A stretch of DNA of 64,000 bases. It comes from a virus. Numbering within the stretch: position 1 is the stretch's first letter; each line of letters begins with the position of its first letter. Position numbers and translations under genes: made by a program. The notes under the pieces are model-generated. The model searched no databases. It was not told where the DNA came from and was given only the letters and a program-made list of their open reading frames with translations. Below, in pieces: positions 1-9,088 of this stretch. The DNA is taken from IMG/VR virus record IMGVR_UViG_3300017917_002068, positions 1 to 64,000 of that record, one strand, 5' to 3'.

Positions 1-864
1 CTGTAGGCGGTTCGCCGCTTACGAAGAATAACTGTGGTGACACAGCCAACGGATGTATGCCTACATAAGTCCGCCAGCAATGGTTCATTTAAGCAAGCCG
101 GCTCACTAGGGCGACCTAGCGATCACTGATAAGACCGGTGGTTGTAACAGCAAAGCTGATGTATGGGAAAGAACGCAGTTCGACGTGCCGCAAGGAACAC
201 GGGACTGTGAAAAGTAACAGGTGGTGCTGACTTCCATACGAAACCAATCAGTTAGTTGGTATGAGAAAGGGTAGTGTTTGGTTCCGAGGGGTCGCTCCTA
301 AGGGGTCAAGCGCAATGTTAGTGGTTAGTGGTTCTGTTGTGAAACAGAGACATTGATCGCGAAACATCACTGAGTAGCTCGCGAGGCAAAAGGTACGTGG
401 TGTGTTGTATTCTGTATCTAACAAGATATAGAGCAACTGAGGCAGCACATCGCAGTAGGTTGATATAGGCTAATGGTAGGCCAATTCCCTGTTAAGGAAT
501 AGACTGTTGGTTCGACTCCAACTATCTTACAAAAATGCAAAGACTGCCTCGGTCATGTGTGAAAAGCATCTAACACTCAAGGCACAAGCTAATTGAGTTT
601 AGTGAAGCTCGCAAGGTAACACTAATTTGTGAATGGGGGTTCGTAACTGTTTAGCGACAGTGAATAGCTCGCAAGGCTAACGGAATGGATTTCACAGAGT
701 AGCACATGATGACAAGACTACTGCCTGTCTTTAAAAACGGCGATGCTGGTAACAGACTAGGATACCGCAAGGGTCTTAGTGGATGTCTAGAGAAGCTATA
801 CTCGCAAGGTGTAGTATAATGCTAGAGGTGTTACTGGCTTAGGGTGTAATCTCAACCTTAGGCA
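1..864 (+). ncRNA. Large highly structured ncRNA, GOLLD-like (5' end probably upstream of the window)
   Basis: About 860 nt with no credible ORF. Many GNRA-capped hairpins (recurrent CGCAAGG), long-range helices such as GAGGCAG 439-445/CTGCCTC 544-550, and a 3' hairpin. It abuts a phage tRNA array and contains a tRNA-like insert; both are reported features of GOLLD RNA. Confidence 0.7.
459..530 (+). ncRNA. tRNA-Asn(GTT)-like module embedded in the large ncRNA
   Basis: D arm GGCT/GGCC, anticodon arm ATTCC-CTGTTAA-GGAAT, T arm GTTGG-TTCGACT-CCAAC. Only 4 acceptor pairs (GATA/TATC) and no CCA. Confidence 0.75.
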
Positions 865-953
865 CTATTATAAAACACATTGTAGCGGGTTCGTAAGTAT
901 GAGTCGCATTCCAAAGAGTGCCCTTGAACTGAATATAGTGTGTTTCATAATAG
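865..953 (+). ncRNA. Small structured element closed by a 20-bp imperfect stem
   Basis: CTATTATAAAACACATTGTA pairs with TATAGTGTGTTTCATAATAG; inner hairpin GCATTC-CAAA-GAGTGC. Confidence 0.55.
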
Positions 954-961
954 AAAATTTG

Positions 962-1036
962 GCATCGATAGCTCAGCGGTAGAGCAACGCCCTTACAAGG
1001 CGAAGGTCCTAGGTTCGATCCCTTGTCGATGCACCA
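962..1036 (+). tRNA. tRNA-Val(TAC)
   Basis: Cloverleaf; acceptor GCATCGA/TCGATGC; anticodon loop CTTACAA; encoded CCA. Confidence 0.93.
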
Positions 1037-1042
1037 CACAGC

Positions 1043-1134
1043 ACCCCTGTAGTTTAATGGTAAAACAGCGGATTTATATCCCGTGTGCAACAGATAATTG
1101 GCCAATGTGGGTTCGACTCCCGCCGGGGGTACCA
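1043..1134 (+). tRNA. tRNA with TAT (Ile) anticodon and a 22-nt variable region
   Basis: Acceptor ACCCCTG/CGGGGGT; loop TTTATAT; variable region 1085-1106; T arm GTGGG-TTCGACT-CCCGC; ACCA end. Confidence 0.8.
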
Positions 1135-1141
1135 ATTAAAT

Positions 1142-1231
1142 GGAAGGTTGGCAGAGTCCGGTTTATTGCACCTGTCTTGAAAACAGACGATCCGAAAGGG
1201 TCCGTGAGTTCGAATCTCACACCTTCCACCA
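1142..1231 (+). tRNA. tRNA-Ser(TGA)
   Basis: Class II cloverleaf; loop CTTGAAA; long variable arm; CCA. Confidence 0.93.
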
Positions 1232-1237
1232 AATTAC

Positions 1238-1330
1238 GGAGAGTTGGCTGAGCGGCTGAAGGCAGCGGTTTGCTAAACCGTCGATCGTTTTATAAGCGGT
1301 CCGAGGGTTCGAATCCCTCACTCTCCACCA
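1238..1330 (+). tRNA. tRNA-Ser(GCT)
   Basis: Class II cloverleaf; loop TTGCTAA; CCA. Confidence 0.93.
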
Positions 1331-1361
1331 AGTACTAGAACTATATACAATACTATAAAGG

Positions 1362-1547
1362 ATGAATATGCTTAGACCTACAGCAAATTATAAAATGAGC
1401 AAGCCAACAAAAACTGGTTTAGCTCTACACAAGTTTAAAGATGCTCACTCTCGTGGGGCATGGAAACGTGCTATGATTCAAGCAGAGCTTAGTGCTGCAA
1501 TACAACCTAAACGTGAAAAATCTCGCAGAGAACCTGCAGGAGAGTAA
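1362..1547 (+). CDS. Small basic hypothetical protein (start may be the internal ATG at 1396)
   Basis: ORF track; fills the gap between tRNA genes; abuts the next ORF. Confidence 0.55.
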   Translation: MNMLRPTANYKMSKPTKTGLALHKFKDAHSRGAWKRAMIQAELSAAIQPKREKSRREPAGE

Positions 1548-1548
1548 T

Positions 1549-1734
1549 ATGGGAGACGGTGGCAAGGGTTCTAGACCGAGACCATTTAGTGTCAGCCAAG
1601 AAGAATTTGATAATAGATGGAATGTTATTTTTAATAAGAAGAAAAAAACAGACACAGAAAAGTTCGACGATTCTGTAATGAAGAATGAATATTATGATCA
1701 GGATATCGATCCCGAAAACCCTGATAAAGATTAA
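1549..1734 (+). CDS. Hypothetical protein (MGDGGKGSRPRP...)
   Basis: ATG at 1549 preceded by AGGAG; in frame with the 1492..1734 ORF. Confidence 0.65.
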   Translation: MGDGGKGSRPRPFSVSQEEFDNRWNVIFNKKKKTDTEKFDDSVMKNEYYDQDIDPENPDKD

Positions 1735-1735
1735 T

Positions 1736-1811
1736 GGGGGTATAGCTCAGATGGGAGAGCAGTAGCTTTGCAAGCTAAAGGTCGTCAGTTCGATCCTGAC
1801 TATCTCCACCA
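1736..1811 (+). tRNA. tRNA-Ala(TGC)
   Basis: G3:U70 pair; loop TTTGCAA; CCA. Confidence 0.93.
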
Positions 1812-1829
1812 AATATATAGAGGAAAAAT

Positions 1830-1997
1830 ATGTCAAAAACAAGTATGCTAACTAAAACAGGTAAGACTAGACTAGGTCCTCTGAGCCTAGCACAGTTAAA
1901 AGATCTTCTAGAAAAAACATCTAGAGCCAAAGATAAAGGCAAGATCATGAATCGCATCCGCGAACTAGAATCTCGAGTAAGTAAAACAGCTATTTGA
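1830..1997 (+). CDS. 55-aa hypothetical protein (MSKTSMLTKTGKTRLGPL...), not in the ORF track
   Basis: GAGG RBS; fills the gap between tRNA-Ala and tRNA-Thr exactly. Confidence 0.6.
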   Translation: MSKTSMLTKTGKTRLGPLSLAQLKDLLEKTSRAKDKGKIMNRIRELESRVSKTAI

Positions 1998-2006
1998 AAA
2001 TTTTAA

Positions 2007-2080
2007 GCCGCTTTAGTTAAATGGTATAACAGTTGCCTTGTAAGCATCAATCGTTGGTTCGATTCCATCAAGCGGCACCA
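2007..2080 (+). tRNA. tRNA-Thr(TGT)
   Basis: Acceptor GCCGCTT/AAGCGGC; loop CTTGTAA; CCA. Confidence 0.9.
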
Positions 2081-2087
2081 GATCAAT

Positions 2088-2162
2088 TCCAGTGTAGCAC
2101 AGCGGTAGTGCAGGTGACTGTTAATCACTTGGTCGTTGGTTCGATCCCAGCCACTGGAGCCA
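2088..2162 (+). tRNA. tRNA-Asn(GTT)
   Basis: Acceptor TCCAGTG/CACTGGA; loop CTGTTAA; GCCA end. Confidence 0.93.
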
Positions 2163-2187
2163 ATTTTGCTAGTTTCTTAAAACTAGC

Positions 2188-2431
2188 CGGAGAAGTAAAG
2201 GGTAGATGAGGATAGACACCGTGTGGCTTCATGCCGCATGACTTAATTCTGGCAAACAGTCTTGAAAACTGTTCGTACTTGTATGACCCAGTCTAAACTA
2301 TTCGACCTTGTGATTTGACAACTGGAAATACACAAGTCTCTGTGCCTTGTGCCTTGTGACTTGTTTAGAGAAACTTTACAGTATCTCGATTTGCATTTTG
2401 TCCGGTCTATTACTTGACCTTTTACTATCCG
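2188..2431 (+). ncRNA. Unassigned structured RNA of about 245 nt
   Basis: Terminal helix 2188-2203/2417-2431; ATAGAC/GTCTAT; hairpins CGTGTGGC-TTCAT-GCCGCATG and AACAGT-CTTGAAA-ACTGTT; no ORF. Confidence 0.55.
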
Positions 2432-2507
2432 TCATTATTTTGGTAAGATAGACGTTGTGTCTGTCTTGTTTTATTGTTATAATTAATCATTGAAAAAAGA
2501 GATACAA

Positions 2508-3080
2508 ATGAATATCACACTTCGCAAAGCAAACGCACTTCAAAACAGCATCAACGATACTATTAAAAGTATCAAGTTTGATACTGTGGTTAAAGTAAAT
2601 GAATTCCAAGATCCAGAAGCAGTTATCAAGACTGCTGAAGTTGAGTTCGCTCGCAACATGCAAAGACGCGACAGTCTTTATGCAGTTCTTTACGAAATTC
2701 GTAAATTAGTCGGCAGAGGCAATGATGCCTCTGGTATTAGCCAAAGACTAGCGGATGTTGCGCATCTAGAAAAACAAATCCAGTTTTTTGGCGACCTTGC
2801 CTCTAAGGAAGTTCGAGAGGATGGAAAAGTCATCGCTGGCAAATTGGATAAGATCCGTAATGAAAAAGGTGAGAGTCGTAGAACTATCTACGGTTACAAT
2901 GACGAAGTATCTACTTCTATCCTAGACAAAGAGGAAGTAGAAGGCTTTAAAAAATTAACAGTAGCCTCTAAGAAAAACAAACAGAAACTCCAAGATGAAA
3001 TTCTTGAGTTGAATGTTAGAACTGAAATCGAACTCAGCGAAAAAGCTGTAGCGATTTTAACATCTGAAGGCTTACTGTAA
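2508..3080 (+). CDS. Hypothetical helical/coiled-coil protein inside the tRNA island
   Basis: 190-aa ORF from ATG 2508; TGnTATAAT just upstream. Confidence 0.8.
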   Translation: MNITLRKANALQNSINDTIKSIKFDTVVKVNEFQDPEAVIKTAEVEFARNMQRRDSLYAVLYEIRKLVGRGNDASGISQRLADVAHLEKQIQFFGDLASKEVREDGKVIAGKLDKIRNEKGESRRTIYGYNDEVSTSILDKEEVEGFKKLTVASKKNKQKLQDEILELNVRTEIELSEKAVAILTSEGLL

Positions 3081-3082
3081 CA

Positions 3083-3278
3083 GACCCCGGTTACACTTTT
3101 CCGGAAGAAAGTGCGCCATTACCAAGCGATAGAAGGTACGGTGCGTAGGATCTACCGCAAGGCCCTCTTTAGGGGCGACTTGAGAAATCTTAGGTACGAA
3201 CTGTAACGGCACCAAAAGCAAAATACAGCGGACAGGGTAACAACTCAGTCTAGGGCGGGACGGGAACCGTGGCTAGAC
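3083..3278 (+). ncRNA. Structured RNA of about 195 nt with a 5' pseudoknot (manA-motif-like candidate)
   Basis: CCGG stem whose loop CACTTT pairs with downstream AAAGTG; GCCCTC-TTTA-GGGGC; 3' GTCTAG...CTAGAC hairpin. Size and tRNA-adjacent phage context fit the manA motif; the family name is unverified. Confidence 0.5.
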
Positions 3279-3366
3279 ACTTTATCGAAGTGCATTACAA
3301 AACATCGGCCAGTTTAAGGTGGACCTGGGTGCTAGCAAGAAAACCTTTAGTGTGCTTCAATAAAGT
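3279..3366 (+). ncRNA. Small structured element closed by a 19-bp imperfect stem (second copy of the 865-953 architecture)
   Basis: ACTTTATCGAAGTGCATTA pairs with TAGTGTGCTTCAATAAAGT. Confidence 0.55.
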
Positions 3367-3375
3367 AAGAACAAT

Positions 3376-3449
3376 CGCGGAATAGAGAAAAGGTATCTCG
3401 AGAGTCTCATAAGCTCTAGTTCTTGGTTCGATTCCAGGTTCCGCAACCA
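3376..3449 (+). tRNA. tRNA-Met(CAT), initiator-like
   Basis: C1xA72 mismatch; A11:U24; loop CTCATAA; CCA. Lacks the three G:C anticodon-stem pairs. Confidence 0.85.
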
Positions 3450-3454
3450 AACAT

Positions 3455-3530
3455 GCGGGAGTAGCTCAGTTGGTAGAGCACTTGCCTTCCAAGCAAGATG
3501 TCGCGAGTTCGAGACTCGTCTCCCGCTCCA
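3455..3530 (+). tRNA. tRNA-Gly(TCC)
   Basis: Cloverleaf; loop CTTCCAA; TCCA end. Confidence 0.95.
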
Positions 3531-3535
3531 AATAT

Positions 3536-3614
3536 CCGGGTGTAGCTTAGTCTGGCTTAAAGCGCCTGCTTTGGGAGCAGGAGATCGTGAGTTCGAATCC
3601 CACTTCCCGGACCA
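3536..3614 (+). tRNA. tRNA-Pro(TGG)
   Basis: Loop TTTGGGA; CCGGG/CCCGG acceptor; CCA. Confidence 0.9.
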
Positions 3615-3623
3615 AAAAAATTT

Positions 3624-3698
3624 ACCCCCGTCGTTCAATGGAGAGGACAGGAGTCTTCTAAACTCTAAATGGAGGTTCGATTCCTTCCGGGGGTGCCA
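3624..3698 (+). tRNA. tRNA-Arg(TCT)
   Basis: Loop CTTCTAA; ACCCCCG/CGGGGGT acceptor; CCA. Confidence 0.92.
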
Positions 3699-3705
3699 GA
3701 ATTAA

Positions 3706-3780
3706 CTCGCTATAGTTCAATGGACAGAACGAGTTCCTCCTAAGAACTAGATCCAGGTTCGATTCCTGGTGGCGAGGCCA
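3706..3780 (+). tRNA. tRNA-Arg(CCT)
   Basis: Loop CTCCTAA; CTCGCTA/TGGCGAG acceptor; CCA. Confidence 0.92.
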
Positions 3781-3783
3781 AGT

Positions 3784-4023
3784 TATTGATGGTGATGAAA
3801 GATCCGATCAACGACCGAAAGGCGATACCGAGCGGGTGGAACTGCAGAGTTGGTGCATCGTAGATACATCGTTGGCTGCAATATGATCCAAGGCTTTTTA
3901 CAGGGTGACTGGATTGCGTGGTAACGGATTCCATGTTGGGCTGGACCATAGAAGCAGGCGCTGTAATGCCTGGGCGGCCAGGAGCTTCGAGCTTAAACCA
4001 AAACTTCATTATTACTGTCAATA
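3784..4023 (+). ncRNA. Unassigned structured RNA of about 240 nt between two tRNAs
   Basis: About 15-bp terminal helix 3784-3798/4009-4023; internal CAACGA/TCGTTG, CC-GAAA-GG, GAAGC/GCTTC, CCTGG-GCGG-CCAGG; GC-rich and non-coding. Confidence 0.6.
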
Positions 4024-4026
4024 CTA

Positions 4027-4100
4027 GCCCAGGTAGCCGAATTGGTATAGGCACTACGTTGAGGTCGTAGGTTTTGTGAGTTCGAATCTCACCCTGGGTA
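4027..4100 (+). tRNA. tRNA-Leu(GAG) lacking the long variable arm; CCA not encoded
   Basis: Acceptor GCCCAGG/CCTGGGT; CTACG-TTGAGGT-CGTAG; 5-nt variable loop GTTTT; T arm GTGAG-TTCGAAT-CTCAC. Confidence 0.85.
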
Positions 4101-4113
4101 CAAAGGAGACAAT

Positions 4114-4272
4114 ATGAAACTTTGGGAAGCAACTATTAGAGATCCTGGTCCGGGCACTGAAGAACGCAAGGTTCGAATCGGTGCCGACTCAGCAGAAGAA
4201 GCTCGCAAGCTTCTGCAACAACTCTACGGCCCTAGATCTGTTCCTTATCTACCTAAACAAATTCCTCAATAA
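4114..4272 (+). CDS. 52-aa hypothetical protein (MKLWEATIRD...), not in the ORF track
   Basis: Strong RBS AAAGGAG; resembles the 58338..58523 product. Confidence 0.7.
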   Translation: MKLWEATIRDPGPGTEERKVRIGADSAEEARKLLQQLYGPRSVPYLPKQIPQ

Positions 4273-4286
4273 TTGATGTTATGTCA

Positions 4287-4315
4287 TTGACAACATTTGA
4301 TATTGGATATATAAT
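4287..4315 (+). promoter_or_regulatory. Sigma70-type promoter
   Basis: TTGACA-17 nt-TATAAT, perfect consensus; the next ATG is only 6 nt downstream (leaderless). Confidence 0.8.
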
Positions 4316-4321
4316 GTTGTA

Positions 4322-4540
4322 ATGTATAAAGTAGAATGGAAGGACACAGCGGGTAGAGGCTGTGTGGAAGAAGTAAAAGATCTATCAGCGGCAATATCAT
4401 TTGCCACAGAATTAGGAATACCGGTTACCATAAACGGTGGTGGTATGGAAATCGTAGGCGTGTTCGGCGCCGATTCAATAAACAACGGTCTGTTACCAAA
4501 CGGTGATAGATACAGTTGGTACAAACGTAGAAAGCCCTAA
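4322..4540 (+). CDS. Hypothetical protein
   Basis: ORF track; directly after a consensus promoter. Confidence 0.75.
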   Translation: MYKVEWKDTAGRGCVEEVKDLSAAISFATELGIPVTINGGGMEIVGVFGADSINNGLLPNGDRYSWYKRRKP

Positions 4541-4551
4541 AAGGAAAAATC

Positions 4552-5091
4552 ATGGCACCATGGATTCAAAACGTATCGCTCAGCGATGTTAAGAAAGGCC
4601 ATCATATTGATGCTGGCATTAATTCCATGCTGATCCAGATCGTTGATCCGGCTATGGAGTTTCCTACACCTAGTTATCAGTTTAAAGAAACTCATCAATT
4701 TGAGTTTCTCGATCTAGAAAAAAGTGACGACTGTATCAACGACGATTGGAAAATTTCCGACGCACAGGCTGAGCAACTTGTAGCCCTTCTACAACGAGCA
4801 TTTGAGAATCATATGAACGTTGTTGTTCATTGTGTAGCAGGTGTTTGTCGTTCGGGTGCTGTAGCAGAAGTTGGTGTGATGCTAGGTTTTCGCGATGCTG
4901 AGACTTTTCGCTCACCTAACCTGTTGGTCAAGCACAAGATGATGAAGTGCCTAGGTTGGACCTATGACGAGCAGGAGCCTCACACAATCAATGGGGTGGC
5001 TCTTGCTGAAGATTGGACTAACGATAACGAAAAAGTCTTTATGCTGGCTGCAGAACGCAGGGCACGTAGAGAACGTGAGGGCGACATTTAA
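4552..5091 (+). CDS. Cys-based (PTP/dual-specificity-like) phosphatase
   Basis: VHCVAGVCRS matches the HCX5RS motif. Confidence 0.8.
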   Translation: MAPWIQNVSLSDVKKGHHIDAGINSMLIQIVDPAMEFPTPSYQFKETHQFEFLDLEKSDDCINDDWKISDAQAEQLVALLQRAFENHMNVVVHCVAGVCRSGAVAEVGVMLGFRDAETFRSPNLLVKHKMMKCLGWTYDEQEPHTINGVALAEDWTNDNEKVFMLAAERRARREREGDI

Positions 5092-5109
5092 CTGTTGCGG
5101 TTTTACCAC

Positions 5110-5159
5110 AATGCCCTGTCAGTTTTAGAATTGACAGGGCATTCTTTTGAGTGTATAAT
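5110..5159 (+). promoter_or_regulatory. Sigma70 promoter with its -35 box inside a 12-bp inverted repeat
   Basis: TTGACA 5131-5136, TATAAT 5154-5159; inverted repeat AATGCCCTGTCA/TGACAGGGCATT. Confidence 0.75.
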
Positions 5160-5164
5160 ATATT

Positions 5165-5713
5165 ATGATGAGAACATTTATAACTAGCGACCTACACTTC
5201 GGACATAAGAACATAATGAAGTTCTGTCCGCAGACCCGAGGACACTACAAAGACACAGATGAAATGCGTGAAGATATGATACGCATTTGGAATAGTCAGG
5301 TGCAAGACGGAGATTTGATTTATATTTTGGGAGATGTGGCATTTCTACCTGCCGTGGATGCTGTTAAAATCATGCGCAGACTTATCGGTCGTAAAATACT
5401 TGTAGAAGGTAATCACGATCGCAAGCTGCTGAATGATCCGGCGTTCCGTGATTGTTTTGAAGAAATACACAAGTATCTTTGGATCAATTACGAAGGCACA
5501 CAGGTAGTGATGTTTCATTATCCCATTTGGGAATGGGATCAAATGCACAGAGGTTCAGTACATTTTCATGGTCATCTTCACGGTAACCCAAACGGTATGG
5601 AAAAGTACCGTGCTCGCGATGTAGGGTGTGATGCTACTGGACAGGTTGTTTGGTTAATGGAAGATGCTATCAAGGACGCTCTCAAGGGAGAGATTAGGGG
5701 TCATCATGTCTAG
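5165..5713 (+). CDS. Calcineurin-like metallophosphoesterase
   Basis: Motifs SDLHFGH, LGD, GNHD, HYP, HGHLH. Confidence 0.9.
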   Translation: MMRTFITSDLHFGHKNIMKFCPQTRGHYKDTDEMREDMIRIWNSQVQDGDLIYILGDVAFLPAVDAVKIMRRLIGRKILVEGNHDRKLLNDPAFRDCFEEIHKYLWINYEGTQVVMFHYPIWEWDQMHRGSVHFHGHLHGNPNGMEKYRARDVGCDATGQVVWLMEDAIKDALKGEIRGHHV

Positions 5714-6167
5714 AGTTTATGTGTTAGTCGGAGTGCCTGGTGCAGGAAAAAGTACTTGGGTTGAAAATCAACTGTGGGCCAAAGACTGTGTTTATATCAG
5801 TTCAGATCAATTAGTTGAAGAAGAAGCAACACGCCAAGGAAAGACCTACAACGATGTATTCAAAGATTATATCAACGAAGCTGTTTCCTTGATGTTAGAT
5901 CAAGTTATCGCTGCTCGTGAAGAAGGTAAGGATATCATCTGGGATCAAACTTCTGTAAGCATAAAAAGTCGAAAGAAAAAATTCTCGATGCTGCCCGACT
6001 ATGAACACATCGCTGTGGTATTTGATACACCGCCGGCCTGCGAATTAATGAATCGTTTAGCCAGCCGACCGGGGAAAAAAATTCCCTGGGAAGTTGTTAG
6101 TAGTATGATCAAAAATTTTGAAATGCCCTCTGAAGAGGAAGGCTTCAAGGAAATTTGGAGAACATAG
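5706..6167 (+). CDS. P-loop kinase, polynucleotide-kinase-like (AAA_33)
   Basis: GVPGAGKST Walker A, DQT and RxxxR lid; ATG 5706 overlaps the upstream stop. Confidence 0.85.
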   Translation: MSRVYVLVGVPGAGKSTWVENQLWAKDCVYISSDQLVEEEATRQGKTYNDVFKDYINEAVSLMLDQVIAAREEGKDIIWDQTSVSIKSRKKKFSMLPDYEHIAVVFDTPPACELMNRLASRPGKKIPWEVVSSMIKNFEMPSEEEGFKEIWRT

Positions 6168-7048
6168 TGTTCAAAGACGAATTAAAAAAATACATCGCTG
6201 AATCTGGACTAGTGAATATGAAGTCTGCCGGCGATGGAATCTTCGTTCTAAAATATAAGAAGAAAGTGTTCTACGATAACTTATGGAATGATTATATTGC
6301 AGAGTGTCGTGGTACTATTGTTGATTCTGATTTCGAATTAGTAAGTTATCCTTTTACTAAAATCTATAACTATGGTATCGAAAAGGCTGCACCAGTTCTT
6401 TCCGACGATGTTGCTGTAACCGCATTCCGTAAAGTTAATGGCTTCATGGTCGCTATCACTTGGCATAATAATGATCTTTTGATCTCTACTACCGGTAGTA
6501 CTGACAGTGATTTCGTTGCCATGGCTCGCGAAATGATCGATGAAGATCGTTACAAAGAAGTGCTGAGAAAATATGAAAGCCATACTTTCATGTTTGAATG
6601 CGTACATCCCAACGATCCTCATATCATTCCGGAGGAATTTGGCATGTATCTTTTAGGTTATCGTATCAAGTCCTGGAACAGTGCCGTAGAAACTGAAGAG
6701 ATCGAACGTATCGCTAAAGACCTAGGTTGCCGTGTTCCAGAAAAATACGAAACAACTATGGGCAAACTATTAGCATCAGTAAAGACTGTCAAACATGAAG
6801 GATATGTATTCTATACCAAAGACGGTGTAAGTGCCAAAATCAAATCACCATACTACTTGACCTCAAAGTGGGTCGCTCGCAATCCACGCACAGACAAATT
6901 AGTAGATTTAAATCGGGACATCAAGCACAACCTAGATGAAGAGTATTACCCGCTCGTAGATGCTATCCGTGCTAACATCGTTGAATACACAGCTATGGAC
7001 GAGCAGGCTCGCCTAGCATGGGTCCGTAACTATATGGAGGCTATATGA
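6155..7048 (+). CDS. RNA ligase 1 (T4 RnlA-like)
   Basis: ECRG, PFTKIYNYG, KVNG (motif I), FE, EGYV and KIK motifs. Confidence 0.85.
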   Translation: MENIVFKDELKKYIAESGLVNMKSAGDGIFVLKYKKKVFYDNLWNDYIAECRGTIVDSDFELVSYPFTKIYNYGIEKAAPVLSDDVAVTAFRKVNGFMVAITWHNNDLLISTTGSTDSDFVAMAREMIDEDRYKEVLRKYESHTFMFECVHPNDPHIIPEEFGMYLLGYRIKSWNSAVETEEIERIAKDLGCRVPEKYETTMGKLLASVKTVKHEGYVFYTKDGVSAKIKSPYYLTSKWVARNPRTDKLVDLNRDIKHNLDEEYYPLVDAIRANIVEYTAMDEQARLAWVRNYMEAI

Positions 7049-7224
7049 AAGACGAAAGTCATTTACCAGTAAGCCAGCAGAGTCTCGTGTTCCGGCTGCG
7101 TAAGCGGGCAGAGATCCGTAGGCAGATCAAAGATCGTAAATCGGTACAAGAAGGAGCGCCTGATCGTATCGCAGATCTTTTAGAAGAAGCAGCTGATCGC
7201 ATAGAATCGCTCGAATCAAAATAG
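7045..7224 (+). CDS. 59-aa hypothetical protein (MKDESHLPVSQQ...), not in the ORF track
   Basis: GGAGG RBS; ATGA overlap with the ligase stop; followed by a terminator. Confidence 0.7.
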   Translation: MKDESHLPVSQQSLVFRLRKRAEIRRQIKDRKSVQEGAPDRIADLLEEAADRIESLESK

Positions 7225-7246
7225 GACCTCAGGGTCCTATTTTTTT
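7221..7246 (+). terminator. Intrinsic terminator
   Basis: ATAGGACC-TCAG-GGTCCTAT followed by a T run. Confidence 0.75.
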
Positions 7247-7297
7247 AGGTTTTGTGCCAAATCAATAAATACGCATATAACTAACCGGAGAAGTAAA

Positions 7298-7849
7298 ATG
7301 TTGTTGCGCCTAGGTGACCCAGAGTTTAAGGAAGATTGGCTTAAACTCTTAGAAATGGATCCAGTACATCCATCAATTCCAATCGAAGAACGCACACAAG
7401 GTGGTCGTACTGTGTTCGCTCTTGAAAGCGGAGGAGCTCCTATGGCTCTGATCTGCGCCAAATTGTCCGACCATATGAATCGCAGTATCCAAGAAATCCT
7501 TACTCCGGAACAGCAGAATCTAGTAGCTATGTTTTACACAGTGTTTAGATTGCCAGGTGCTGCTGGAGGTGTTGGTGTTGATATCATCAGAGAAGTTATT
7601 GACTACTGCCGAAACAAAGGTATAGATCAGCTTTACACACTGAGTCCAATTCCCACACTGAGGAAACACTTTTCAGAAATGCCCACTGAGGAACAGGTGC
7701 GAGAATATATAGAATTACGAAAAGATCCTGTGGCCAGGTTCCATTTGGGCAACGGTGCTAGACTTCATTCTGTAAATTTCAACGCTGACCAAAGCGCAAA
7801 CCGTCAAGAAGAAAGTTGGGGCATCATGGTCAATTACAATTATTCGTAA
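7298..7849 (+). CDS. Malonyl-CoA decarboxylase catalytic-domain protein (minimal)
   Basis: Motifs AMFYTV, TLSPIP, DPVARFHLGNGA and GIMVNYxY of the MCD C-terminal domain. Confidence 0.8.
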   Translation: MLLRLGDPEFKEDWLKLLEMDPVHPSIPIEERTQGGRTVFALESGGAPMALICAKLSDHMNRSIQEILTPEQQNLVAMFYTVFRLPGAAGGVGVDIIREVIDYCRNKGIDQLYTLSPIPTLRKHFSEMPTEEQVREYIELRKDPVARFHLGNGARLHSVNFNADQSANRQEESWGIMVNYNYS

Positions 7850-7865
7850 TTGATCCTCCAAAACA

Positions 7866-7896
7866 AGAAAAAGGCCTTAGGGCCTTTTTTCTTTTT
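7866..7896 (+). terminator. Intrinsic terminator (bidirectional-looking)
   Basis: AAAAAGGCC-TTAG-GGCCTTTTTT. Confidence 0.75.
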
Positions 7897-7906
7897 CATA
7901 AACGTT

Positions 7907-7954
7907 ATTGATTTTTCCTATAAGCGTCATTAAAAAATATTAGGTAAAATCTAT
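7907..7954. promoter_or_regulatory. OxyR-type binding site upstream of ahpC
   Basis: ATTG-N7-CTAT-N7-ATTA-N7-TTAG-N7-CTAT, just upstream of TTGATT...TATAAT. Confidence 0.6.
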
Positions 7955-8048
7955 TAAAATTACTTGATTTATAGGATAATTAAATTATATAATAGTTACA
8001 TAGAACACACAGTTCTAAAGTTTTCAACACACACAAAGGAGATTGTAA

Positions 8049-8582
8049 ATGAAAACAGTTGGTCATAAATTAGAAAAATTTGCCGTAACAGGCGTTAATC
8101 CGGGTAAAGATGATTTCTTTACTATCACAGACGAATCTTTCGCAGGTAAGTGGAAGGTGATCGTTTATTATCCAAAGGACTTTACATTCGTATGCCCAAC
8201 AGAAATCGTTGCCTACGATAAGCTGTACAATGATTTCGCGGATCGCGATGCAGTGTTACTAACTGGTTCTACTGATAATGAGTTCTGCAAATTAGCATGG
8301 CAGGCCGCTCACGAAGACCTCAAGAAGATCAAACACATTCAATTCGCTGACACACAACGTAATGAGTTGAGTCTTATCGATCAGCTAGGAGTATTCTACG
8401 CTCCAGCAGGTGCTGCTCTACGTGCCACCTTCATCGTTGATCCAGATAACGTTATTCAACACGTTACTGTGAATAATCTAAACGTTGGTCGCTCACCTGA
8501 AGAAACACTTCGTGTTCTAGATGCGCTACAAACTGGCGAACTATGTGCTTGTAATCGTACAGTCGGCGGAGAGACACTATAA
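8049..8582 (+). CDS. ahpC: Peroxiredoxin AhpC
   Basis: YPKDFTFVCPTE, RATFIVDP, VGRS and resolving LCAC. Confidence 0.95.
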   Translation: MKTVGHKLEKFAVTGVNPGKDDFFTITDESFAGKWKVIVYYPKDFTFVCPTEIVAYDKLYNDFADRDAVLLTGSTDNEFCKLAWQAAHEDLKKIKHIQFADTQRNELSLIDQLGVFYAPAGAALRATFIVDPDNVIQHVTVNNLNVGRSPEETLRVLDALQTGELCACNRTVGGETL

Positions 8583-9088
8583 TGGCATTCATCGACGCTA
8601 TCAAAGAAGCGTTGCCAGACTACGCCAAGGACACCAAGTTAAATCTTGATGCTGTTCTTGTGCGTAGTACATTAGATGCAGATGTGGCCATGGGTTGTGC
8701 TGTGGCAGCACTTGCCGCAACTGGCAACGGTAAAGTGTTGGCTGTAATGTTAGCTGACAATCCTGTACATGCAGAGTCGGCGATGACGGCTGCAAGTATC
8801 ATGGCACAGAACAACGTATGGTATCCATATGTTGAGATGGCTGACGATGAAAATCTAAAAGGCTTGCCGGCACAGCTACGCATGAATGCTATCATGAATC
8901 ATGGCGGAACTACCAAGGCAAACTTTGAAGCATTTAGTTTGGCTGCTAGCATTGTTGGCAAGTGCCATTTCTGTGTCAAGGCACACTACGACACACTTAA
9001 GAAGGAAGGCTACACAGTAGAACAACTTCGTGACATTGGCCGTATTGCCGCAGTGATGAACAGTGTTGCTAAAGTTTTAAACAGTTAA
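8582..9088 (+). CDS. ahpD: Alkyl hydroperoxide reductase AhpD
   Basis: LPDYAKDTKLNL, MAQNNVWY and CHFCVKAH; coupled to ahpC. Confidence 0.92.
   Translation: MAFIDAIKEALPDYAKDTKLNLDAVLVRSTLDADVAMGCAVAALAATGNGKVLAVMLADNPVHAESAMTAASIMAQNNVWYPYVEMADDENLKGLPAQLRMNAIMNHGGTTKANFEAFSLAASIVGKCHFCVKAHYDTLKKEGYTVEQLRDIGRIAAVMNSVAKVLNS

What the first reader, a model, noticed from the sequence alone, without database searches (positions are those of the whole stretch)
1..7224. RNA island: large ncRNAs displaying anticodon-like loops, interleaved with tRNAs and followed by an RNA-repair gene set
Seen: 13 tRNAs interspersed with at least six non-tRNA structured RNAs. Two of these carry canonical 7-nt anticodon loops, Asn CTGTTAA (489-495) and Ser CTTGAAA (2261-2267), identical to loops of real tRNAs in the same island. 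A third has a weaker Tyr-like CTGTAA loop (3961-3966). A phosphatase, phosphoesterase, kinase and Rnl1 ligase follow directly. Known: T4 Pnk/Rnl1 repair PrrC-cut tRNA-Lys, and phage tRNAs counter host anticodon nucleases. Inference: a layered counter-defence of replacement tRNAs, non-chargeable anticodon decoys on large RNA scaffolds, and repair enzymes.
Basis: partly seen in the sequence, partly recalled or inferred. Interest (0 to 1): 0.85.

Follow-up and report, generated by a model that had tools for sequence, protein, structure and literature searches.

The report
Phage tRNA island with giant RNAs
The start of this large uncultured lake phage holds 13 tRNA genes mixed with a known giant cage-forming RNA (GOLLD) that carries a built-in tRNA look-alike, three further conserved folded RNAs of no described family, and a set of RNA-mending enzymes; the idea that the RNAs act as decoys for tRNA-cutting host defences is untested.

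Summary
Position 1-858 is a GOLLD RNA (Rfam 197.6 bits), cut at its 5' end by the contig end. The "Asn decoy loop" is the anticodon loop of a tRNA-shaped domain in the GOLLD linker, which is a published feature. In 17 unique relatives this domain keeps its D, anticodon and T arms. Its loop reads CU-NUU-AA (Asn 11, Lys 6), and it never has a full acceptor stem.

The "Ser loop" sits on hairpin P4 of a ~280-nt RNA matched by no Rfam family. That RNA occurs in at least 119 IMG/VR stretches and shows strong covariation. It lies beside one 190-aa helical protein gene in 78 of 79 assessable contexts. Two more RNAs (3081-3375 and 3781-4026) are also conserved and covary. The "Tyr" loop there has 6 or 8 nt, not 7. 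Two supposed RNA gaps encode small conserved proteins.

The phosphatase, phosphoesterase, kinase and Rnl1 genes are confirmed.

The decoy function is neither shown nor excluded. In the solved GOLLD cage the linker lies inside.

This scan has already noted both the GOLLD tRNA-like domain and the RNA-protein pair on other DNA.

The parts
1..396 (+). GOLLD RNA, 5' domain. It is cut by the contig end; relatives have up to about 190 more nt between the preceding tRNA and this point.
   Evidence: 71-89% identical to the DNA directly 5' of the GOLLD match in 21 loci. Alignment A5 of 12 sequences gives 113 predicted pairs, 50 with compensatory changes. Fold z-score is -4.3. Window position 1 is contig position 1.
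397..858 (+). GOLLD RNA: the hairpin before the linker, the linker and the conserved 3' domain (the Rfam RF02032 match).
   Evidence: 197.6 bits against a gathering score of 150, E 6e-55, model positions 1-416 of 416.
460..530 (+). tRNA-shaped domain in the GOLLD linker with anticodon GTT (Asn). Its loop CTGTTAA lies at 489-495. The acceptor stem has only 4 pairs in the canonical register (462-465 with 523-526), and no CCA is encoded.
   Evidence: ARAGORN. Rfam tRNA 55.6 bits, model positions 4-67 only. Sequence read. Comparison of 17 unique relatives.
859..961 (+). Unassigned tail after GOLLD. A weak promoter-like site lies at 924-951, before tRNA-Val.
   Evidence: 91-94% identical over 93 nt in 4 loci, directly after their GOLLD; only the first 23-24 nt match in 2 more. 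Promoter scan. Not studied further.
962..1330 (+). tRNA-Val(TAC), tRNA-Ile(TAT) with a long variable arm, tRNA-Ser(TGA) and tRNA-Ser(GCT).
1362..1734 (+). Two small protein genes (1362-1547 and 1549-1734, 61 aa each). This interval is not RNA.
   Evidence: tblastn finds them conserved as proteins in 61 and 20 loci, at 38-79% and 54-68% aa identity. Ribosome-binding sites were read.
1736..1811 (+). tRNA-Ala(TGC)
1830..1997 (+). Small protein gene, 55 aa.
   Evidence: Conserved in 12 loci at 62-84% aa identity.
2007..2162 (+). tRNA-Thr(TGT) and the free-standing tRNA-Asn(GTT).
2162..2440 (+). Conserved ~280-nt RNA of no Rfam family (here called RNA-A). It has a P1 hairpin (2168-2187) and a long closing helix (about 2195-2217 with 2400-2426). 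P3 is a hairpin at 2220-2240. P4 spans 2255-2273 and carries the loop CTTGAAA at 2261-2267. P5 and P5a follow. Four TGT words lie at a period of 7 (2341-2364).
   Evidence: The 18-mer of the 3' strand of the closing helix occurs in at least 119 IMG/VR stretches. There are 76 unique homologues. In alignment A2 of 38 sequences, 95.1% of cells pair, 30 of 44 pairs show compensatory change, and 0 of 500 shuffles reach this. No Rfam match at E<=1.
2442..2470 (+). Terminator-like hairpin between RNA-A and the 190-aa gene. In the alignments this insertion is seen only in the window.
2508..3080 (+). Gene of a 190-aa helical protein (p190), the constant neighbour of RNA-A.
   Evidence: Among 83 unique RNA-A contexts, the gene lies directly after the RNA in 40, after one small ORF in 32 and upstream in 6. 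Four contexts hold too little DNA and 1 has none. No Pfam, PHROG, NCBIfam or PDB match. The Atlas gives viral hypothetical proteins and a weak DUF6847 lead.
3081..3375 (+). Conserved structured RNA (RNA-B). The core is 3081-3285; a further long hairpin runs to about 3366 and is shared with locus L072. It ends at the 5' end of tRNA-Met.
   Evidence: blastn matches in 59 of 132 loci and in 46 of 65 further loci found with its motif. In alignment A4 of 19 sequences, 96.1% of cells pair, 21 of 35 pairs are compensatory and 0 of 500 shuffles reach this. No Rfam match.
3376..3780 (+). tRNA-Met(CAT), Gly(TCC), Pro(TGG), Arg(TCT) and Arg(CCT).
3781..4026 (+). Conserved ~245-nt structured RNA (RNA-C), bounded by tRNA-Arg and tRNA-Leu and closed by a long terminal helix. 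The hairpin at 3955-3972 carries CTGTAA (3961-3966).
   Evidence: 20 loci plus 7 confirmed of 48 motif loci. In alignment A3 of 11 sequences, 94.3% of cells pair, 31 of 62 pairs are compensatory and 0 of 500 shuffles reach this. CTGTAA is kept in 10 of 11. No Rfam match.
4027..4101 (+). tRNA-Leu(GAG)
4114..4540 (+). Two small protein genes (4114-4272 and 4322-4540), with a perfect sigma-70-like promoter at 4287-4315 between them.
4552..5091 (+). Dual-specificity-phosphatase-like protein with the HCxxGxxRS signature.
   Evidence: PF00782 1.7e-6, below the curated cut-off. Signature read. Found in 80 of 132 loci.
5165..5713 (+). Metallophosphoesterase, the first gene of the unit between the promoter at 5131-5159 and the terminator at 7218-7243.
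   Evidence: PF12850 1.8e-6. phrog_547 9e-51. Motifs DxH, GD, GNHD and GHxH read. Promoter and terminator.
5664..6167 (+). P-loop polynucleotide-kinase-like protein.
   Evidence: PF13671 1.4e-20. phrog_505 polynucleotide kinase 5.8e-13. TIGR04075 bacterial Pnkp kinase part 1.2e-7.
6155..7048 (+). Rnl1-family RNA ligase, 297 aa.
   Evidence: PF09511 2.3e-11. phrog_562 5.1e-51. T4 Rnl1 structure 2c5u 2.4e-8, with query residues 24-245 aligned to chain residues 28-261. KVNG motif read.
7045..7224 (+). 59-aa protein, the last gene of the ligase unit.
   Evidence: Conserved in 18 loci, together with the ligase in most of them.

Best explanation
This is the RNA gene island of an uncultured freshwater jumbo phage. 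The record is 128 kb and CheckV estimates it 37% complete.

Shown:
- 13 ordinary tRNA genes.
- One GOLLD RNA whose variable linker carries a permanently tethered tRNA-shaped domain. Here its anticodon is Asn; in relatives it is Asn or Lys.
- Three further conserved, covarying RNAs matched by no Rfam family. RNA-A travels with the gene of a 190-aa helical protein. RNA-B usually starts right after that gene's stop codon, but it also occurs without the gene. RNA-C sits between two tRNAs.
- Five small protein genes.
- A phosphatase gene, then a promoter-to-terminator unit of metallophosphoesterase, polynucleotide-kinase-like protein, Rnl1 ligase and a 59-aa protein.

Inferred:
- The island is transcribed as long precursors, and tRNA processing sets the ends of the RNAs that abut tRNAs. 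RNase P would cut at tRNA 5' ends and 3' trimming would act at tRNA 3' ends. RNA-A starts at the 3' end of tRNA-Asn, RNA-B ends at tRNA-Met, and RNA-C fills the space between tRNA-Arg and tRNA-Leu. In relatives a sigma-70 promoter sets the 5' end of RNA-A instead.
- The tRNAs keep phage translation supplied, and the enzymes heal and seal broken tRNA ends as T4 does.
- GOLLD assembles into the published cage, with its tRNA-like domains on the linker.
- RNA-A works with p190, either as an RNA-protein pair or as its structured leader.

The 'anticodon-like loops' are therefore two different things. One is a true tRNA-like anticodon arm built into GOLLD. The other is a conserved hairpin of RNA-A whose constant letters are (C)U(U)GAA.
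For: GOLLD. Rfam gives 197.6 bits over the full model. The 5' region is contiguous, conserved and covarying.

Linker domain. The tRNA-shaped domain is published for GOLLD (passages of PMC12286853, the preprint, and PMC6582537). In 17 unique relatives the D, anticodon and T stems change by compensation. The loop reads CT-NTT-AA in 16 and AT-GTT-AA in 1 (GTT 11, TTT 3, CTT 3). The acceptor stem has 4-6 Watson-Crick pairs of 7 in the best register, and none has 7.

RNA-A, RNA-B and RNA-C. Covariation exceeds all 500 shuffles, and the slid-partner controls fall to 32-46% cells paired against 94-96% for the true structures.

RNA-A and p190. They lie near each other in 78 of 79 assessable unique contexts. 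RNA-B starts within 60 nt of the p190 stop in 57 of 59 loci.

5' end of RNA-A. It follows either TTGACA-17-TATAAT or a tRNA 3' end (alignment).

Enzymes.. The same enzyme genes lie in the held flanks of relatives: 80, 82, 19 and 18 of 132 loci.

Known roles. Passages of PMC10264068 and PMC11455837.
Against: No expression or processing data exist for this phage. tRNA-guided release of the RNAs and cage formation by this GOLLD are inferences.

The GOLLD 5' end is missing, so its full architecture cannot be checked.

RNA-A is detached from p190 in 6 of 83 unique contexts (the L002-L010 type). RNA-B occurs without p190 in 45 of 49 loci found through its own motif. The three-part module is therefore not obligatory.

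The phosphatase match is below Pfam's cut-off. The ligase is 77 aa shorter than T4 Rnl1 (297 against 374-375 aa) and was aligned only over its catalytic part. Its substrate is unknown.

All alignments come from MAFFT with RNAalifold. No R-scape-type test was available.
Confidence: 0.75

Rival explanations
1. The tRNA-like arm in GOLLD and hairpin P4 of RNA-A are non-chargeable baits. They would titrate or misdirect host anticodon nucleases (or other anticodon-binding factors), acting together with replacement tRNAs and repair enzymes.
For: The linker domain keeps an invariant anticodon loop (U33, U35, U36, A37 and A38 in 17 of 17) while its stems drift. It lacks a full acceptor stem in 17 of 17. 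In the held DNA of 5 of 17 phages, the window included, it is redundant with a free-standing tRNA of the same anticodon. Its anticodons are Lys and Asn. tRNA-Lys is the target of PrrC and of PARIS AriB. From recall, Asn is among the colicin E5 targets. P4 has a 5-6-bp stem and a 7-nt loop with U33 and A37, and its stem covaries (helix 4: 5 of 7 pairs compensatory). Repair genes lie next to the island.
Against: In the solved GOLLD cage the linker lies in the interior (PMC12286853), which would shield it from a nuclease unless the cage opens. The same loop conservation is expected for a working tRNA, and for recognition by AsnRS, LysRS or the t6A37 enzymes. The P4 loop is not one anticodon. Across 76 unique homologues the strict script found CTTGAAA 36, CTGAACA 12, CTGAAAA 2, TTGAACA 1, CTCGAAA 1 and 1 spurious call. 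It found no 7-nt loop on a stem of at least 4 bp in 18, and most of those, by eye, hold CTTGAAA in a 9-nt loop. In 5 the script found no anchor; by eye the hairpin is missing in L017 and L023. C at position 37 in CTGAACA is unlike tRNA. RNA-A is tied to a protein gene, not to defence genes. The third loop is not 7 nt. No host, no nuclease and no cleavage data are available.
Confidence: 0.12
2. The element at 460-530 is an ordinary tRNA-Asn gene that merely lies inside GOLLD. It would be cut out and used in translation.
For: ARAGORN and Rfam both call it. In relative L004 the linker tRNA-Lys matches the whole tRNA model (62.5 bits, positions 1-71). CCA can be added after transcription.
Against: The window copy has 4 acceptor pairs in the canonical register, and the Rfam match lacks positions 1-3 and 68-71. 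None of the 17 unique relatives has 7 Watson-Crick acceptor pairs. A normal tRNA-Asn(GTT) exists at 2088-2162. Excision would cut GOLLD into two pieces. For a mycobacterial GOLLD pseudo-tRNA no expression was detected (PMC6582537, passage).
Confidence: 0.1
3. RNA-A and RNA-B are only the structured 5' leader and 3' end of the p190 mRNA. They would provide stability or translational control inside a heavily processed tRNA transcript and would have no role of their own.
For: RNA-A ends 37-93 nt before the p190 start, or before a small omega-like ORF that precedes p190, in 72 of 83 unique contexts. RNA-B begins at the p190 stop in 57 of 59 loci. A ribosome-binding site follows RNA-A directly.
Against: In 6 of 83 unique contexts RNA-A lies about 1.26 kb downstream of p190, between two tRNA-Met genes. 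In the window a terminator-like hairpin separates RNA-A from p190. RNA-B occurs without p190 in 45 of 49 motif-found loci, behind other genes. A closed ~280-nt fold with 6 helices is large for a leader.
Confidence: 0.3
4. The anticodon-identical loops are coincidences in A/T-rich hairpins.
For: A 7-mer match to one of 13 loops is not astronomically rare. 3.3% of shuffles of the gaps give one.
Against: Both loops are conserved across diverged homologues while their stems covary.
Confidence: 0.03

Closest known systems
GOLLD RNA (Rfam RF02032; Weinberg et al. 2009, recalled; cage structure in Kretsch et al. 2025, PMC12286853, passages read)
   Same: It scores above the family threshold over the whole model. 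It lies in a phage beside tRNA genes. It has a less conserved 5' domain, a variable linker and a conserved 3' domain, and a tRNA sits in the linker.
   Different: The 5' end is missing at the contig end. In this clade the linker domain is always tRNA-shaped with an NUU anticodon (Asn or Lys) and an incomplete acceptor stem (17 of 17 unique). I did not find this stated in the passages I read.
ROOL RNA (Rfam RF03087) and other large phage RNAs near tRNA islands
   Same: RNA-A, RNA-B and RNA-C are conserved, multi-helix RNAs of phages located among tRNA genes, and their function is unknown.
   Different: There is no Rfam match at E<=1. They are smaller (about 200-290 nt). RNA-A is linked to one protein gene. 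Nothing is known about multimer formation.
T4 tRNA gene cluster with the stable 'species 1 and 2' RNAs (recalled, no call)
   Same: Small stable RNAs are encoded between phage tRNA genes and are released by the tRNA-processing machinery.
   Different: No sequence relation was tested. Here the RNAs are larger and more numerous.
T4 Pnkp plus Rnl1 repair of PrrC-cut tRNA-Lys (passages of PMC10264068)
   Same: An Rnl1-family ligase and a P-loop polynucleotide-kinase-like protein are encoded together in a tRNA-rich phage.
   Different: The kinase is not fused to a HAD-type 3'-phosphatase. A separate metallophosphoesterase stands in, as in bacterial Pnkp of Clostridium thermocellum (recalled). There is an extra DSP-like phosphatase. 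The ligase is shorter than T4 Rnl1. No Stp or PrrC context is known.
Phage tRNAs that resist or replace nuclease-cut host tRNAs (T5 tRNA-Lys against PARIS, PMC11455837; PMC10264068; listing only for PMC11555353)
   Same: A large phage tRNA set, with Lys and Asn anticodons prominent.
   Different: Those are free, chargeable tRNAs. The domain here is tethered inside a giant RNA.
Bacterial Y RNA YrlA (Rfam RF02553; PMC4201824, listing only)
   Same: A non-coding RNA that contains a tRNA-like module.
   Different: YrlA mimics the acceptor/T/D part and lacks an anticodon arm. The only YrlA match here (27.3 bits against 69) falls on tRNA-Met and tRNA-Gly.

Membership tests
GOLLD RNA (RF02032) | Covariance-model score at or above the curated gathering score | tested here: met
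   197.6 bits against 150, model positions 1-416 of 416, E 6e-55.
GOLLD RNA (RF02032) | Two-domain build: a less conserved 5' domain, a variable linker and a conserved 3' domain | tested here: inconclusive
   Positions 1-396 are conserved and covarying and lie directly 5' of the match, and the linker holds the tRNA-like domain. However, the 5' end is cut by the contig end.
GOLLD RNA (RF02032) | Phage or prophage location near tRNA genes | tested here: met
   It is an IMG/VR virus record, and 13 tRNAs lie within 3.3 kb.
GOLLD RNA (RF02032) | Homo-oligomeric cage | not testable with these tools
   This needs cryo-EM or native gels.
tRNA (for the element at 460-530) | D, anticodon and T arms with a 7-nt anticodon loop | tested here: met
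   ARAGORN calls Asn(gtt). Rfam tRNA gives 55.6 bits. The arms covary in 17 relatives.
tRNA (for the element at 460-530) | Seven-pair acceptor stem with free ends | tested here: not met
   There are 4 pairs in the canonical register. The Rfam match covers only model positions 4-67. Across 17 unique relatives the stem has 4-6 Watson-Crick pairs of 7.
tRNA (for the element at 460-530) | Aminoacylation and a 3' CCA end | not testable with these tools
   CCA is not encoded, but it can be added by an enzyme.
T4-type RNA repair set (Pnkp plus Rnl1) | Rnl1-family ligase with the motif I lysine | tested here: met
   PF09511 2.3e-11. phrog_562 5.1e-51. 2c5u 2.4e-8. KVNG read. That this is motif I is my reading.
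T4-type RNA repair set (Pnkp plus Rnl1) | P-loop 5'-kinase | tested here: met
   PF13671 1.4e-20. phrog_505 5.8e-13. GVPGAGKST read.
T4-type RNA repair set (Pnkp plus Rnl1) | HAD-type 3'-phosphatase fused to the kinase, as in T4 Pnkp | tested here: not met
   The kinase protein has 167 aa and only a kinase domain. The TIGR01663 match covers just residues 17-51. A separate metallophosphoesterase (PF12850) precedes it.
T4-type RNA repair set (Pnkp plus Rnl1) | Activity on anticodon-loop breaks | not testable with these tools
   This needs enzyme assays.
   Met for 489-495 and 2261-2267. Not met for 3961-3966, where the loop has 6 or 8 nt.
   The GOLLD linker loop changes only at position 34 (G, U or C), apart from one A at position 32. 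The P4 loop is CTTGAAA in 36 of 76 by the strict script, and 54 of 76 hold the word. Variants keep GAA.
   No host or nuclease is known.

The most novel reading that the evidence does not exclude
GOLLD cages of this phage clade would carry a dozen or more covalently tethered, non-chargeable tRNA-Lys or tRNA-Asn anticodon arms as bait. The bait would capture or saturate a host factor that reads NUU anticodon loops, such as a PrrC-, RloC- or AriB-type nuclease. The neighbouring RNA-A would offer a second anticodon-arm mimic, and the adjacent kinase, phosphoesterase and Rnl1 unit would mend what is still cut. That would give GOLLD its first function.
Probability: 0.12. Interest if true: 0.9.

Novelty: new variant of a known kind. 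Interest (0 to 1): 0.6.

Why it matters
GOLLD has had no known function since 2009. Its cage structure raised the question of what the linker, and the tRNAs sometimes found in it, are for.

In one clade the linker element is always tRNA-shaped. It never has a complete acceptor stem. Its anticodon loop is fixed except at the wobble position (Asn or Lys). This points to recognition of the anticodon arm as the selected property. That idea can be tested directly with synthetases, t6A enzymes, RNase P and anticodon nucleases.

The same island also yields three conserved, covarying phage RNAs that Rfam does not hold. One of them is tied to a single helical protein, which makes it a candidate new RNA-protein pair.

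Together with an Rnl1-type healing-and-sealing unit, this island is a compact place to study how large lake phages manage tRNA and RNA damage.

Tried and rejected
Rfam at E<=1 over 1-7300 gave nothing for 2163-2507, 3081-3375 or 3781-4026. The weak hits (YrlA, sX4, plastid UTR models) all lie on tRNAs. Rfam and ARAGORN found nothing at 7000-64000.

Megablast of 1-7300 against isolated phages matched only tRNA genes.

I considered a kissing contact between the P3 loop (TTCAT) and the P4 loop (TGAA) of RNA-A. By eye, on the alignment, P3 loop variants are not matched by P4 changes, so I dropped the idea. No formal test was run.

I considered that TTGACC at the 3' end of RNA-A is only the -35 box of a p190 promoter. 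It is part of the covarying closing helix. A promoter role on top of that is not excluded.

The 18-mer of RNA-A gave 8 hits in genome contigs. Only 3 of the 8 gave any blastn match, each of 22-26 nt, and none holds p190, so these are chance hits. About 35 chance hits would be expected by my arithmetic.

The RNA-C motif scan gave 67 stretches. Of the 48 that were new, only 7 were confirmed by blastn; the rest are chance matches of a pattern with 14 fixed bases.

The RNA-B motif matched two IMG/VR records whose lengths equal those of Caulobacter phages CcrPW and CcrColossus. However, the gap after the remote p190 homologue gp272 of CcrColossus lacks the motif and does not align convincingly. I did not look at where the motif lies in those records.

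There was no NCBIfam hit at E<=0.01, no PDB hit at E<=1 and no PHROG hit.

Expression: no RNA holder was listed. The one run offered (X1, lake water, labelled RNA-Seq; that it is RNA is a guess) holds contigs of relatives. When laid at 85% likeness, contigs touch GOLLD, the tRNAs, 2164-2542 and 3799-3941, and none covers 2652-3133. This is not evidence of expression or of silence.

The family counts are therefore lower bounds from one exact word and blastn. Supplements of PMC12286853 are closed and may list linker tRNAs.

Full report
What the window is. The window is the first 64 kb of a linear IMG/VR virus record of 128,003 bases that CheckV estimates to be 37% complete. It is therefore probably a fragment of a jumbo phage. 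Window position 1 is the end of the contig. Megablast against isolated phages matched only tRNA genes.

Check of the observation. ARAGORN finds 14 tRNA-type genes on the + strand between 460 and 4101. Thirteen are free-standing and one is tRNA-Asn(gtt) at 460-530. Rfam's tRNA model finds the same 14. CTGTTAA at 489-495 equals the loop of the free tRNA-Asn at 2088-2162. CTTGAAA at 2261-2267 equals the loop of tRNA-Ser(tga). CTGTAA lies at 3961-3966. In 2000 dinucleotide shuffles of the non-tRNA gaps, a loop identical to one of the 13 tRNA loops on a stem of at least 4 pairs arose 0.034 times per shuffle. The four enzymes exist. They are a DSP-like phosphatase (below the Pfam cut-off), a metallophosphoesterase, an AAA_33 / polynucleotide-kinase-like protein and an Rnl1 ligase. 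The ligase matches PF09511, phrog_562 at 5e-51 and the T4 Rnl1 structure 2c5u at 2.4e-8.

The first 'scaffold' is GOLLD. Rfam places GOLLD (RF02032) at 397-858 with 197.6 bits against a gathering score of 150, over the whole model. The 396 bases before it are 71-89% identical to the DNA directly 5' of the GOLLD match in 21 related loci. They fold into 113 predicted pairs, 50 with compensatory changes, in 12 sequences. This region is the less conserved 5' domain, and it is cut by the contig end. In relative L004 about 190 more bases separate it from the preceding tRNA. The tRNA call at 460-530 falls in the unstructured stretch of the model between the first hairpin and the 3' domain, which is the linker. 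tRNAs in the GOLLD linker are in print. [quoted passage not shown] A pseudo-tRNA inside a mycobacterial GOLLD was reported, with no detectable expression of its own (PMC6582537, passage).

What the linker element looks like across relatives. I compared 26 GOLLD linkers from the held loci, of which 17 are unique. ARAGORN calls a tRNA in 12 of the 17. The other 5 still show the three arms by pattern. The anticodon stem, T stem and D stem differ between sequences by compensating changes. The loop reads CT-NTT-AA in 16 and AT-GTT-AA in 1, with GTT (Asn) in 11, TTT (Lys) in 3 and CTT (Lys) in 3. The acceptor stem has 4-6 Watson-Crick pairs of 7 in the best register, and none has 7. No copy encodes CCA, and the 3' side runs straight into conserved GOLLD sequence. 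In the window the canonical register gives 4 pairs (462-465 with 523-526), and the Rfam tRNA match covers only model positions 4-67. A free-standing tRNA with the same anticodon lies in the held DNA of 5 of the 17 phages, the window included. The other flanks are partial. The element is therefore a selected, tRNA-shaped, probably permanently tethered domain. Its anticodon loop is under sequence constraint except at the wobble base.

The second 'scaffold' is a widespread RNA that is not in Rfam. The 190-aa ORF at 2508-3080 brought in 13 related IMG/VR loci. The stretch 2163-2507 aligned to them from the very end of the preceding tRNA, with visible compensating changes. Of 130 occurrences, 76 are unique with enough flank, and 39 remain at under 85% identity. 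RNAalifold on 38 of them gives a hairpin P1, a long closing helix whose 3' strand is that 18-mer, hairpin P4 and helices P5/P5a. P3 and a variable P6 are visible by eye but poorly aligned. On this structure 95.1% of cells pair and 30 of 44 pairs show changes on both sides. No shuffle of 500 reaches the observed values, and sliding the partners drops pairing to 32-44%. The 5' end follows either a TTGACA-17-TATAAT promoter or, as in the window, the 3' end of a tRNA. Rfam has no match at E<=1.

The P4 loop. The word CTTGAAA is present in 54 of 76 unique homologues. A strict script (7-nt loop, stem of at least 4 pairs) finds CTTGAAA in 36, CTGAACA in 12, CTGAAAA in 2, TTGAACA in 1, CTCGAAA in 1 and one spurious call. 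It finds nothing in 18 and no anchor in 5. By eye, most of the 18 hold CTTGAAA in a 9-nt loop closed by A.C, C.A or A.A. L017 and L023 lack the hairpin. The P4 stem covaries (5 of 7 pairs). The loop is therefore conserved, but the most constant letters are GAA and not one anticodon. C at the position that corresponds to tRNA position 37 in CTGAACA is unlike tRNA.

Link of this RNA to a protein gene. There are 83 unique contexts. The 190-aa gene starts directly after the RNA in 40, after one small ORF in 32, and within 3.5 kb upstream in 6. Four contexts have too little DNA, and one has no such gene nearby (one search gives the same picture on 129 copies that were not de-duplicated). The small ORF tested (L049) is an RNA-polymerase-omega-like protein (PF01192, 3.3e-13). 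The others share its N-terminal sequence in the alignment but were not scanned. p190 has no Pfam, PHROG, NCBIfam or PDB match. The Atlas gives only viral hypothetical clusters and a weak DUF6847 lead. tblastn finds remote homologues (23% identity) in Caulobacter phages CcrColossus and CcrPW.

The third and fourth RNAs. The stretch 3081-3375 begins at the p190 stop codon. blastn finds it in 59 of 132 loci, and it starts within 60 nt of the p190 stop in 57 of those 59. On 19 sequences, 96.1% of cells pair and 21 of 35 pairs are compensatory, with 0 of 500 shuffles reaching this. A motif scan found 65 further loci, 46 of them confirmed by blastn. Across all the newly fetched loci, 49 hold this RNA, and in 45 of the 49 no p190 lies on that strand; other genes precede it. 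It is thus a family of its own. The stretch 3781-4026 fills the space between tRNA-Arg and tRNA-Leu. It occurs full-length at 78-87% identity in 16 held loci, with partial matches in 4 more, and in 7 of 48 loci from a motif scan. On 11 sequences, 94.3% of cells pair and 31 of 62 pairs are compensatory, with 0 of 500 shuffles reaching this. Its hairpin at 3955-3972 keeps CTGTAA in 10 of 11 sequences with a covarying stem. The loop has 6 nt if the G.U pair forms and 8 nt if it does not, so it is not an anticodon loop.

What is not RNA. The gaps 1331-1735 and 1812-2006 hold ORFs of 61, 61 and 55 aa with ribosome-binding sites. tblastn finds them in 61, 20 and 12 loci, down to 38% amino-acid identity. 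Two more small genes lie at 4114-4540. 'At least six' structured RNAs therefore becomes four verified units plus an unassigned 103-nt tail (859-961).

The enzyme set. A perfect sigma-70-like promoter (5131-5159) and a terminator-like hairpin (7218-7243) frame the metallophosphoesterase, kinase, ligase and a 59-aa gene. The sequences show the metallophosphoesterase motifs, the P-loop GVPGAGKST, KVNG in the ligase and HCxxGxxRS in the phosphatase. The naming of these motifs is from recall. The kinase is not fused to a HAD phosphatase as in T4 Pnkp. Homologues of the four genes lie in 80, 82, 19 and 18 of the 132 held loci, which are limited by their flanks. From recall, the combination of kinase, metallophosphoesterase and ligase matches the three activities of bacterial Pnkp-type end healing and sealing.

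How it most likely works. The identities above are shown. The following steps are inferred. The island is transcribed in long precursors, and tRNA processing sets the ends of the RNAs that abut tRNAs. The tRNAs and the healing and sealing enzymes protect phage translation against tRNA depletion or cleavage, a role documented for other phages (passages). GOLLD forms its cage. RNA-A acts with p190.

The decoy idea. Two facts fit it: the linker domain is non-canonical at its acceptor end, and its anticodons are Lys and Asn. Three points speak against it. In the solved cage the linker is inside. The same constraints would hold for recognition by synthetases or t6A enzymes. The P4 loop behaves like a GAA-centred contact motif in an RNA that is tied to a protein gene. 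I put the decoy reading at about 0.12.

Earlier notes of this scan. The GOLLD tRNA-like domain and the RNA-protein pair were both reported before on other DNA. My counts were made independently on this window's relatives and agree with those notes. One wording, 'DIP1984-like', was not reproduced.

Expression. No RNA holder was listed. One lake-water library of uncertain kind holds contigs of relatives over parts of the island. I treat this as no evidence either way.

Noticed in passing
window 1043-1134; also L011 535-626, L012 and L013 3478-3569: tRNA-Ile with anticodon TAT and a long, class-II-sized variable arm (92 nt). It is conserved in three related loci, which stand for one or two phages.
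   Followed up: no
window 2341-2364: Four TGT words at an exact period of 7 (TGT-N4, four times) in RNA-A. In relatives the same columns keep YTG/TTG words. This may be a repeat site for a multimeric RNA-binding protein such as p190.
   Followed up: partly
L049 1066-1308 and the equivalent place in 32 of 83 unique RNA-A contexts: A small RNA-polymerase-omega-like gene (PF01192, 3.3e-13) sits between RNA-A and the p190 gene in many relatives. The window lacks it at this place.
   Followed up: partly
window 439-445 with 544-550: A 7-bp helix (GAGGCAG/CTGCCTC) could close the GOLLD linker around the tRNA-like domain. Relatives show GAGTCAG with CTGACTC, a compensating change seen by eye. It overlaps the 3' strand of the Rfam P1 hairpin, so it may be an alternative or pseudoknotted pairing.
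   Followed up: no
window 859-961: A 103-nt tail after GOLLD is conserved at 91-94% in 4 loci, and only its first 23-24 nt match in 2 others. I could not tell whether it belongs to GOLLD, is a terminator or is a separate small RNA.
   Followed up: no
window 4287-4315 and 5131-5159: Two perfect 12-of-12 sigma-70 consensus promoters (TTGACA-17-TATAAT). The second overlaps a 15-pair terminator-like hairpin at 5110-5143.
   Followed up: no
window 7298-9088: A 183-aa protein matches the C-terminal domain of malonyl-CoA decarboxylase (PF05292, 1.2e-20). It is followed by AhpC/TSA (PF00578) and carboxymuconolactone-decarboxylase/AhpD-like (PF02627) genes.
   Followed up: no
L227 3253-4677 (- strand), and 2 similar loci: In three loci RNA-B follows a 475-aa DUF2828 + DUF7788 protein instead of p190. 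RNA-B therefore associates with more than one kind of gene.
   Followed up: partly
L008 2400-2942: In this relative RNA-A is followed directly by an RNA-C homologue (L024/L008 2699-2942). In the window the two are 1.3 kb apart. The RNA units are shuffled between phages like cassettes.
   Followed up: partly
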